Below are positions 31,679 through 31,816 of a stretch of 64,000 nt of DNA, in pieces. The position numbers and the translations under genes were made by a program. The stretch spans positions 620,001-684,000 of the forward strand of contig NW_020843834.1 in assembly GCF_003704095.1 (NCBI RefSeq), given 5' to 3'. Position 1 is the stretch's first letter; the number at the start of each line of letters is the position of its first letter. This DNA comes from Pocillopora damicornis. Its lineage: Eukaryota. Below the pieces are notes generated by a model, which saw only the letters and a program-made list of their open reading frames with translations, was not told the DNA's origin and did not search any database.

Positions 31679-31712
31679 TATAAATTTCGTTCTCCCTCTC
31701 CTTCGCCAGTAG
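31679..31712 (+). promoter_or_regulatory. Putative ALAS core promoter: TATA box and Inr-like element
   Basis: TATAAA at 31679-31684 and CCAGT (Inr-like, A at 31708) 29 nt downstream. The predicted 5' UTR is ~110 nt. Confidence 0.5.
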
Positions 31713-31732
31713 TGAATGCAGTGACATTCCTG
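31710..31732 (+). promoter_or_regulatory. Iron-responsive-element-like hairpin in the ALAS 5' UTR
   Basis: UAG-U-GAAUG-CAGUGA-CAUUC-CUG: a perfect 5-bp upper stem, CAGUGH loop and single bulge at the C8 position (U here rather than C), with a short 3-bp lower stem. Confidence 0.45.
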
Positions 31733-31816
31733 AGGAACCCACCTACTAAGTTTGGATAAAGTGATCTCTCTCAGTTTACAAGGCTTGTTCTGCAATCCGT
31801 TTGAGGTTTTTCTACG

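What the first reader, a model, noticed from the sequence alone, without database searches (positions are those of the whole stretch)
31706..31735. Cap-proximal IRE-like stem-loop in an apparently non-bilaterian ALAS, with a U bulge and an embedded Met-Gln-stop uORF
Seen: GAATG-CAGTGA-CATTC (31714-31729) forms a perfect 5-bp stem closing a CAGUGH loop, with one unpaired base (U31713) and a lower stem UAG/CUG. It lies a few nt after the predicted TSS (TATA 31679, Inr 31708). Established: vertebrate ALAS2 and ferritin carry cap-proximal IREs with this geometry but a C bulge; to my knowledge ALAS IREs are mainly reported from deuterostomes. The same bases also read ATG CAG TGA, a two-codon uORF. 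Inference: iron/IRP-coupled or uORF-based translational control of ALAS may be older than assumed or have arisen convergently. The C-to-U bulge and short lower stem would weaken IRP binding.
Basis: partly seen in the sequence, partly recalled or inferred. Interest (0 to 1): 0.7.

Follow-up and report, generated by a model that had tools for sequence, protein, structure and literature searches.

The report
U-bulge iron-responsive element in coral ALAS
Near the likely start of the coral messenger RNA for the first haem-making enzyme sits a small hairpin sequence that other corals also keep and that matches the vertebrate iron switch except at one key base, so it likely lets low iron weakly dampen haem synthesis, while the tiny reading frame inside it is not conserved and is likely incidental.

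Summary
The hairpin is real (31710-31732) and lies in the mRNA of a Pocillopora-type coral ALAS gene, 12 nt after the likely start. Its core (n7-n25) is 15-17 of 19 identical in 10 of 10 coral loci with upstream DNA, while the rest of the 5' UTR is only 39-48% identical, so it is under selection. The bulge is never C in corals: U here, in L035 and (back-translated) in three further proteins; G with two U.U mismatches in nine loci. The Met-Gln-stop uORF is kept in 0 of 11 relatives and is rejected. Rfam IRE models do not hit; the element fits SIREs 3.0 motif 20 (U8). A coral IRP1 keeps the known contact residues. Best reading: an ancient, low-affinity ALAS IRE (0.6). Against: C8 is missing, the upper stem shows no compensatory change, and the invariant CATTCC could be a DNA site beside two conserved CArG boxes. 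A cnidarian ALAS IRE was already predicted in 2014 (Nematostella, medium quality, untested), so the age claim is not new; the conserved non-C bulge is. Binding is untested. The scan's notes held no earlier report of this.

The parts
31710..31732 (+). IRE-like hairpin: 3-bp lower stem, U bulge, 5-bp upper stem, CAGUGA loop
   Evidence: upper-stem pair probabilities 0.82-0.95; conserved core
31713..31713 (+). Position 8 bulge, U instead of the canonical C
   Evidence: no other letter in the X8 contig that covers it; U in L035, G in L026-L034
31719..31724 (+). CAGUGA hexaloop (C14-G18, AGU, A19)
   Evidence: CAGUG invariant in 8 of 8 aligned sequences; position 19 is U in the 7 others
31725..31730 (+). 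CATTCC: 3' arm of the hairpin; also matches the TEAD/MCAT DNA motif (motif recalled)
   Evidence: invariant in 8 of 8 aligned sequences
31716..31724 (+). ATG CAG TGA two-codon uORF, likely incidental
   Evidence: homologous ATG absent in 11 of 11 related loci
31679..31685 (+). TATA box
   Evidence: a TATA lies 42-48 nt before the loop in 10 of 10 coral loci, 40 nt here
31706..31710 (+). Initiator-like CCAGT, likely start at A31708
   Evidence: furthest RNA contig begins at 31708; weak evidence
31634..31662 (+). Two perfect CArG boxes CC(A/T)6GG (31634-43, 31653-62), 19 bp apart (SRF-type motif, recalled)
   Evidence: both kept at 19-bp spacing in 10 of 10 coral loci
31817..38071 (+). ALAS coding sequence, 9 exons (31817-31970, 32123-32158, 33966-34079, 34798-34941, 35276-35519, 35671-35855, 36238-36488, 37133-37495, 37769-38071), 597 aa, four N-terminal Cys-Pro motifs of the haem-regulatory type
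   Evidence: eight GT..AG joints in 4 of 4 RNA runs, exact cuts, translation, PDB match

Best explanation
The hairpin is a conserved 5' element of coral ALAS mRNA that likely works as a low-affinity iron-responsive element: when iron is short, apo-IRP1 would bind its CAGUG loop near the cap and damp translation of the first haem-synthesis enzyme. Shown: the sequence, its presence in the transcript, its conservation, the non-C bulge and an IRP1 gene with the contact residues. Inferred: folding in vivo, IRP1 binding, repression, and descent from the same ancestral ALAS IRE as the deuterostome ones. The U8 bulge and the short lower stem are predicted to place it low in the binding hierarchy; the G8 form with two U.U mismatches would be weaker still.
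For: Four of the five IRE features listed by Volz 2021 are wholly or partly met (C14-G18, AGU, five-pair upper stem; A19 is tolerated, 16% of classic IREs). Fits SIREs 3.0 motif 20, U8 + CAGUGN. Invariant columns across 8 sequences are the loop and the pairs G7-C25, G9-C24, U12-A21, G13-C20, plus U22 and U23; the free columns are 8, 10, 11, 19 and the lower stem. Core 15-17 of 19 identical against 39-48% for the rest of the UTR. 30 consecutive bases are invariant among six haplotypes whose downstream UTR is 68-88% identical. Position 11 changes A-U to G.U in L035, and position 10 is G against U in P0004/P0005 by back-translation. Chance 4e-4 for a UTR of this length, in a gene whose deuterostome orthologues carry IREs. 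The distant L036 has C, five bases, CAGUG at the same place (-113). Coral IRP1 at G000:C1307 keeps R269, S371, S681, P682, R713, R780, D781, W782, with R for K379 as in IRP2 and earthworm IRP (residue list from PMC4184891; numbering counted by me on chain 2b3x).
Against: C8 is absent in all coral sequences seen; clean C8-to-U changes lower IRP1 affinity and abolish regulation in mammals (Volz 2021). Rfam IRE_I and IRE_II give no match at E up to 10. No upper-stem pair changes on both sides; covariation score reached by 133 of 500 shuffles, percent paired by 25 of 500. Nine of ten coral loci have U.U at two of five upper pairs and are not predicted to take the IRE fold (pair probabilities at most 0.34); L035 folds as an IRE only as a 36-nt piece (0.77-0.86), not in 60-80 nt (at most 0.01). 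L036 prefers another hairpin and would have a 5-nt loop. The IRP1 domain-4 residues are also aconitase active-site residues, so their conservation does not show RNA binding. The 3' arm is invariant while its partners vary, which also fits a sequence-read site.
Confidence: 0.6

Rival explanations
1. The conserved bases act as DNA: an initiator-proximal promoter element whose CATTCC is a TEAD (MCAT) site working with two SRF-type CArG boxes; the hairpin is a relic or a by-product.
For: CATTCC invariant while its pairing partners drift to U.U. Two CArG boxes at fixed 19-bp spacing in 11 of 11 coral sequences and a second CATTCC 5-11 bp before the first box in 9 of 10 related loci (motif identities recalled). 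The element sits at a near-fixed distance from TATA (40-48 nt).
Against: Does not explain the invariant G7, G9, U12, G13 and CAGUG, which are exactly the IRE loop and the partners of the 3' arm. The window itself lacks the upstream CATTCC. The two roles are not exclusive.
Confidence: 0.17
2. It is an RNA element descended from an IRE but now read by another factor or used only as cap-proximal structure; IRP control has lapsed in corals.
For: Bulge free to be U or G, and two U.U mismatches fixed in six distinct haplotypes that are otherwise invariant over 30 nt; Volz's C8 rule fails.
Against: The IRP-specific loop CAGUG with non-G position 19 is kept in all; G8 IREs that bind IRP are known in crustaceans and annelids.
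Confidence: 0.15
3. The Met-Gln-stop uORF tunes ALAS translation.
For: ATG CAG TGA is present and is the only ATG in the 109-nt leader.
Against: Homologous ATG in 0 of 11 related loci, stop lost too (position 19 is U); 9 nt from the likely cap with U at -3 and C at +4.
Confidence: 0.05
4. Chance hairpin.
For: 0.47 such shapes expected in the window; not more stable than shuffles.
Against: Conserved in 10 of 10 coral loci; the shared 19-base pattern occurs once in the 234-Mb genome, here.
Confidence: 0.03

Closest known systems
ALAS2 5' UTR IRE of vertebrates, and predicted ALAS IREs of teleost ALAS1, Ciona and sea urchin (PMC3904948 Table S3)
   Same: Same gene family, 5' UTR, CAGUGH loop on five pairs, close to the transcript start
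   Different: U (or G) at position 8 instead of C; lower stem of 3 pairs; untested
Predicted Nematostella ALAS 5' UTR IRE, medium quality, 77 nt before the ATG (PMC3904948; passages and Table S3 read)
   Same: Cnidarian ALAS, similar distance from the start codon (98 nt from loop to ATG here)
   Different: Its sequence is not given; the SIREs version then in use had only C8 or G8 motifs, so it would not have been a U8 element (inferred). No conservation analysis in corals
G8 ferritin IREs of crustaceans and annelids (PMC8466369, PMC4184891)
   Same: Natural IREs without C8; the crayfish one binds IRP1 in vitro
   Different: Ferritin, not ALAS; G rather than U; no U.U mismatches reported in the passages read
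SIREs 3.0 motif 20 (U8, CAGUGN), based on Meehan and Connell 2001 (PMC12230718; the 2001 paper seen only as a reference title)
   Same: Exact match of bulge, loop, five pairs and n7-n25 pair
   Different: The motif rests on in vitro work; this is a natural instance conserved between species

Membership tests
Iron-responsive element (IRE) | C14-G18 cross-loop pair | tested here: met
   C31719 and G31723; invariant; criterion
Iron-responsive element (IRE) | A15-G16-U17 triplet | tested here: met
   invariant in 8 of 8
Iron-responsive element (IRE) | Position 19 present, not G, preferably U or C | tested here: met
   A here (16% of classic IREs), U in the other 7
Iron-responsive element (IRE) | Bulged C at position 8 | tested here: not met
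   U here and in L035, G in L026-L034; U8 accepted only by SIREs 3.0 motif 20
Iron-responsive element (IRE) | Five-base-pair upper helix | tested here: met
   met in the window and L035; two U.U mismatches in L026-L034
Iron-responsive element (IRE) | Match to Rfam RF00037 or RF02253 | tested here: not met
   no IRE match at E up to 10
Iron-responsive element (IRE) | Sense strand, 5' UTR, near the cap | tested here: inconclusive
   in RNA contigs, whole in X8; cap site not mappable from contigs
Iron-responsive element (IRE) | Conserved in related species | tested here: met
   10 of 10 coral loci; ambiguous in L036; none in the distant L040/L041
Iron-responsive element (IRE) | Compensatory covariation of the stem | tested here: not met
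   0 upper-stem pairs with change on both sides; only about three independent lineages
Iron-responsive element (IRE) | An IRP with IRE-contact residues in the same organism | tested here: met
   K379 is R, N685 is S
Iron-responsive element (IRE) | IRP binding and iron-dependent translational repression | not testable with these tools
   needs EMSA and reporters
Conserved regulatory uORF | Upstream ATG kept in relatives | tested here: not met
   0 of 11

The most novel reading that the evidence does not exclude
Iron control of ALAS translation dates from before the cnidarian-bilaterian split, and reef corals run it through a natural non-C8 code (U8 in some lineages, G8 with a U.U/U.U upper stem in another) that standard IRE searches miss, so coral IRP1 reads a wider set of hairpins and the coral IRE regulon is larger than catalogued, with a direct link between iron shortage and host haem synthesis.
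Probability: 0.35. Interest if true: 0.68.

Novelty: new variant of a known kind. Interest (0 to 1): 0.43.

Why it matters
A natural, conserved U8 element tests the rule that C8 is required for IRE function, a point on which mutagenesis, selection experiments and prediction tools disagree. It also turns an unverified 2014 prediction for one anemone into a comparative case that ALAS iron control is older than bilaterians, and gives a short RNA and a known protein to assay in corals, for which iron supply is thought to matter (own knowledge).

Tried and rejected
Rfam scans of the site and of L036: no IRE match. Genome-wide Rfam IRE searches scored only 82 of 98366 and 87 of 37100 candidates and gave one weak intronic-looking hit and none: uninformative. 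Ferritin as the control for C8 versus U8: only a signal-peptide-type ferritin was found, its 5' half missing at an assembly gap; a recalled ferritin motif found nothing; so the coral ferritin IRE was not seen. The supplement that lists invertebrate ferritin IREs (PMC8395497) could not be read and bears on this. Mitochondrial aconitase region: no IRE-shaped hairpin in 20 kb, but its first exon was not located. The 28 loose bases before 31708 in X8 match a repeat with 20 genomic copies whose continuation differs: a chimeric join, not a leader or upstream exon; X1's loose 5' end was not traced. Lack of RNA cover upstream of 31695 is only a weak hint. The 3' end of ALAS in another coral could not be obtained, so the 3' UTR motif's conservation is open. 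Piccinelli and Samuelsson 2007 is not held, so what it says on cnidarian ALAS was not seen. L037-L039 begin inside the coding sequence and were left out of all counts; L040/L041 are distant and show no paired CAG(U/A)G hairpin within 400 nt upstream.

Full report
Observation. The bases are as described: lower arm UAG 31710-12, unpaired U31713, GAAUG 31714-18, loop CAGUGA 31719-24, CAUUC 31725-29, CUG 31730-32. ViennaRNA gives this fold as the minimum-energy structure, no more stable than shuffles (z -0.19), with upper-stem pair probabilities of 0.82-0.95 in three contexts. It is the only such hairpin in the window on either strand; a simulation gave 11 hits in 3 Mb, 0.47 expected per window and 4e-4 per 109-nt leader. 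The place, not the shape, is what is unlikely.

The gene. Eight GT..AG joints are seen in 4 of 4 RNA runs. The spliced frame from ATG 31817 gives 597 aa, 591 of 597 identical to P0001, with four N-terminal Cys-Pro motifs; P0001 matches human ALAS2 at E 6e-184. The nearest named relative is Acropora cervicornis ALAS, and a ferritin exon of the same genome is 100% identical to a protein labelled Pocillopora damicornis, so this is a scleractinian coral. RNA contigs start at 31708 (X8), 31716 (X13), 31721 (X1), 31722 (X2) and 31740 (X10), from four studies, and none of the four runs covers 31560-31694. X8 holds the whole hairpin with U at 31713. Contigs cannot map a cap, X8's 5' join is to a 20-copy repeat and no DNA control was laid, so the start near 31708 is likely, not shown.

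Conservation. A scan with the first 43 residues returned 16 loci; three start inside the coding sequence and were dropped, 13 were read upstream. Ten are coral-type (L026-L035; four have the same upstream sequence, leaving seven haplotypes in two groups). All ten carry the element 40-48 nt after a TATA and 95-117 nt before the ATG. Against the window, positions n7-n25 are 15-17 of 19 identical while the remaining UTR aligns at 39-48%. Invariant in 8 of 8 aligned sequences: G7, G9, U12, G13, CAGUG, CAUUCC. L035 reads U-GAGUG-CAGUGU-CAUUC. L026-L034 read G-GUUUG-CAGUGU-CAUUC, with G at 8 and two U.U mismatches, yet 30 consecutive bases are invariant among their six haplotypes, whose downstream UTRs are 68-88% identical. 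Three read-through proteins from other corals (P0004-P0006) are compatible with a paired CAGUGY hairpin 125-126 nt before the ALAS start, always with U at 8 (back-translation; an inference, not DNA). L036, a more distant and probably non-coral cnidarian ALAS (56% identical to P0001), has C, five bases and CAGUG at -113, but would need a 5-nt loop and prefers another hairpin. The distant L040/L041 show nothing. The shared 19-base pattern occurs once in the genome.

Results against. No upper-stem pair changes on both sides; the two double changes lie in the lower stem; the covariation score is reached by 133 of 500 shuffles, with only about three independent lineages. The L026 group is not predicted to take the IRE fold, and L035 takes it only as a short piece. 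Rfam's IRE models do not match. Volz 2021 (PMC8466369; parts 1-3 of 5 read) lists C8 as required, citing loss of affinity and regulation for clean C8-to-U changes, while noting G8 exceptions in brachiopods, annelids and arthropods. The 3' arm CATTCC also fits the TEAD/MCAT motif, and the promoter has two CArG boxes 19 bp apart in 11 of 11 coral sequences, with another CATTCC just upstream in 9 of 10 relatives (motif names recalled), so a DNA role remains a live rival.

uORF. ATG 31716 is the only upstream ATG, out of frame with ALAS, 9 nt from the likely start, with U at -3 and C at +4. It is absent at that place in 11 of 11 related loci, and the stop is lost as well. It arises because positions 11 and 19 happen to be A here. 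I reject it as a conserved mechanism.

Partner. An IRP1/cytosolic aconitase gene lies at G000:C1307. Five exons aligned to human or rabbit IRP1 or IRP2 keep R269, S371, S681, P682, R713, R780, D781 and W782; K379 is R and N685 is S (contact list from passages of PMC4184891). No change in the C8 pocket explains a U preference, and several of these residues are catalytic, so this shows capacity only. The natural control, the coral ferritin IRE, could not be found in this assembly.

Mechanism. Most likely (0.6) iron-free IRP1 binds the loop a dozen bases from the cap and lowers ALAS translation, as for vertebrate ALAS2, but weakly; haem feedback through the Cys-Pro motifs would act in parallel. 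Low-affinity 5' IREs, ALAS2 among them, are known to be less tightly repressed (passage of PMC10351883). Binding, repression and common descent are inferred.

What is known. PMC3904948 (passages and Table S3 read) already predicted a medium-quality IRE in the Nematostella ALAS 5' UTR, from genomic sequence, without its sequence or a test; it examined one cnidarian ALAS UTR. SIREs at that time had no U8 motif (PMC2896125, part 1 of 3 read); SIREs 3.0 added U8-CAGUGN as motif 20 (PMC12230718, parts 1-2 of 5 read), which this element fits exactly by its rules (the server itself was not run). Nine searches showed no paper on a coral ALAS IRE or a conserved natural U8 ALAS element; Piccinelli and Samuelsson 2007 was not available and one ferritin supplement could not be read. 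PMC7034838, PMC8395497, PMC4613772 and PMC3585816 were seen as passages only. Four answered look-ups plus one near-relatives look-up in the scan's notes held nothing on this element.

Verdict. Real, conserved, works most likely like an IRE, but fails the C8 and Rfam membership tests, so it is filed as an IRE-like U8 variant rather than a classic IRE. New variant of a known kind; interest 0.43.

Noticed in passing
window 38407-38950 (ALAS 3' UTR): Six copies of a motif like (GAC)UGCCYUUAUGCC in about 540 nt; TTATGCC occurs 6 times in 38072-39400 against 0.11 expected from the rest of the window (Poisson P about 2e-9, motif chosen after seeing it). No shared hairpin; the region is covered by RNA contigs. 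Could be repeated sites for a microRNA or an RNA-binding protein; conservation not obtained.
   Followed up: partly
window 31634-31662; L026-L035: Two perfect CArG boxes 19 bp apart, kept in 11 of 11 coral sequences with changes that respect CC(A/T)6GG, and a CATTCC just upstream in 9 of 10 relatives: an SRF/TEAD-like promoter on a haem-synthesis gene (motif names recalled).
   Followed up: partly
L026-L034, hairpin at -95 to -99 from the ATG: A G8 form with two adjacent U.U mismatches in the upper stem, invariant over 30 nt in six haplotypes; would be missed by every IRE rule set read here.
   Followed up: partly
L036:55-90: C8 plus five pairs closing a 5-nt CAGUG loop (position 19 missing), competing with a stronger hairpin, and four upstream ATGs in the leader.
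   Followed up: partly
window 39010-39130 and 39326-39445: A roughly 100-nt block appears twice, diverged, at the end of the ALAS 3' region (seen by eye).
   Followed up: no
window 40820-41640: Array of about 22-bp degenerate tandem repeats (GTCCAAAAT...ATCGGCCAC; seen by eye).
   Followed up: no
window 34270-34410 and 34997-35205 (ALAS introns): High-copy short elements bounded by TAACCCTT..AAGGGTTA-like ends; hundreds of RNA contigs pile up on them; likely MITEs.
   Followed up: no
L042 (G000:C962:164927-168049): Signal-peptide-type ferritin whose 5' exons are missing at an N gap next to an unrelated transporter-like exon; no cytosolic ferritin was found in the assembly by five searches.
   Followed up: partly
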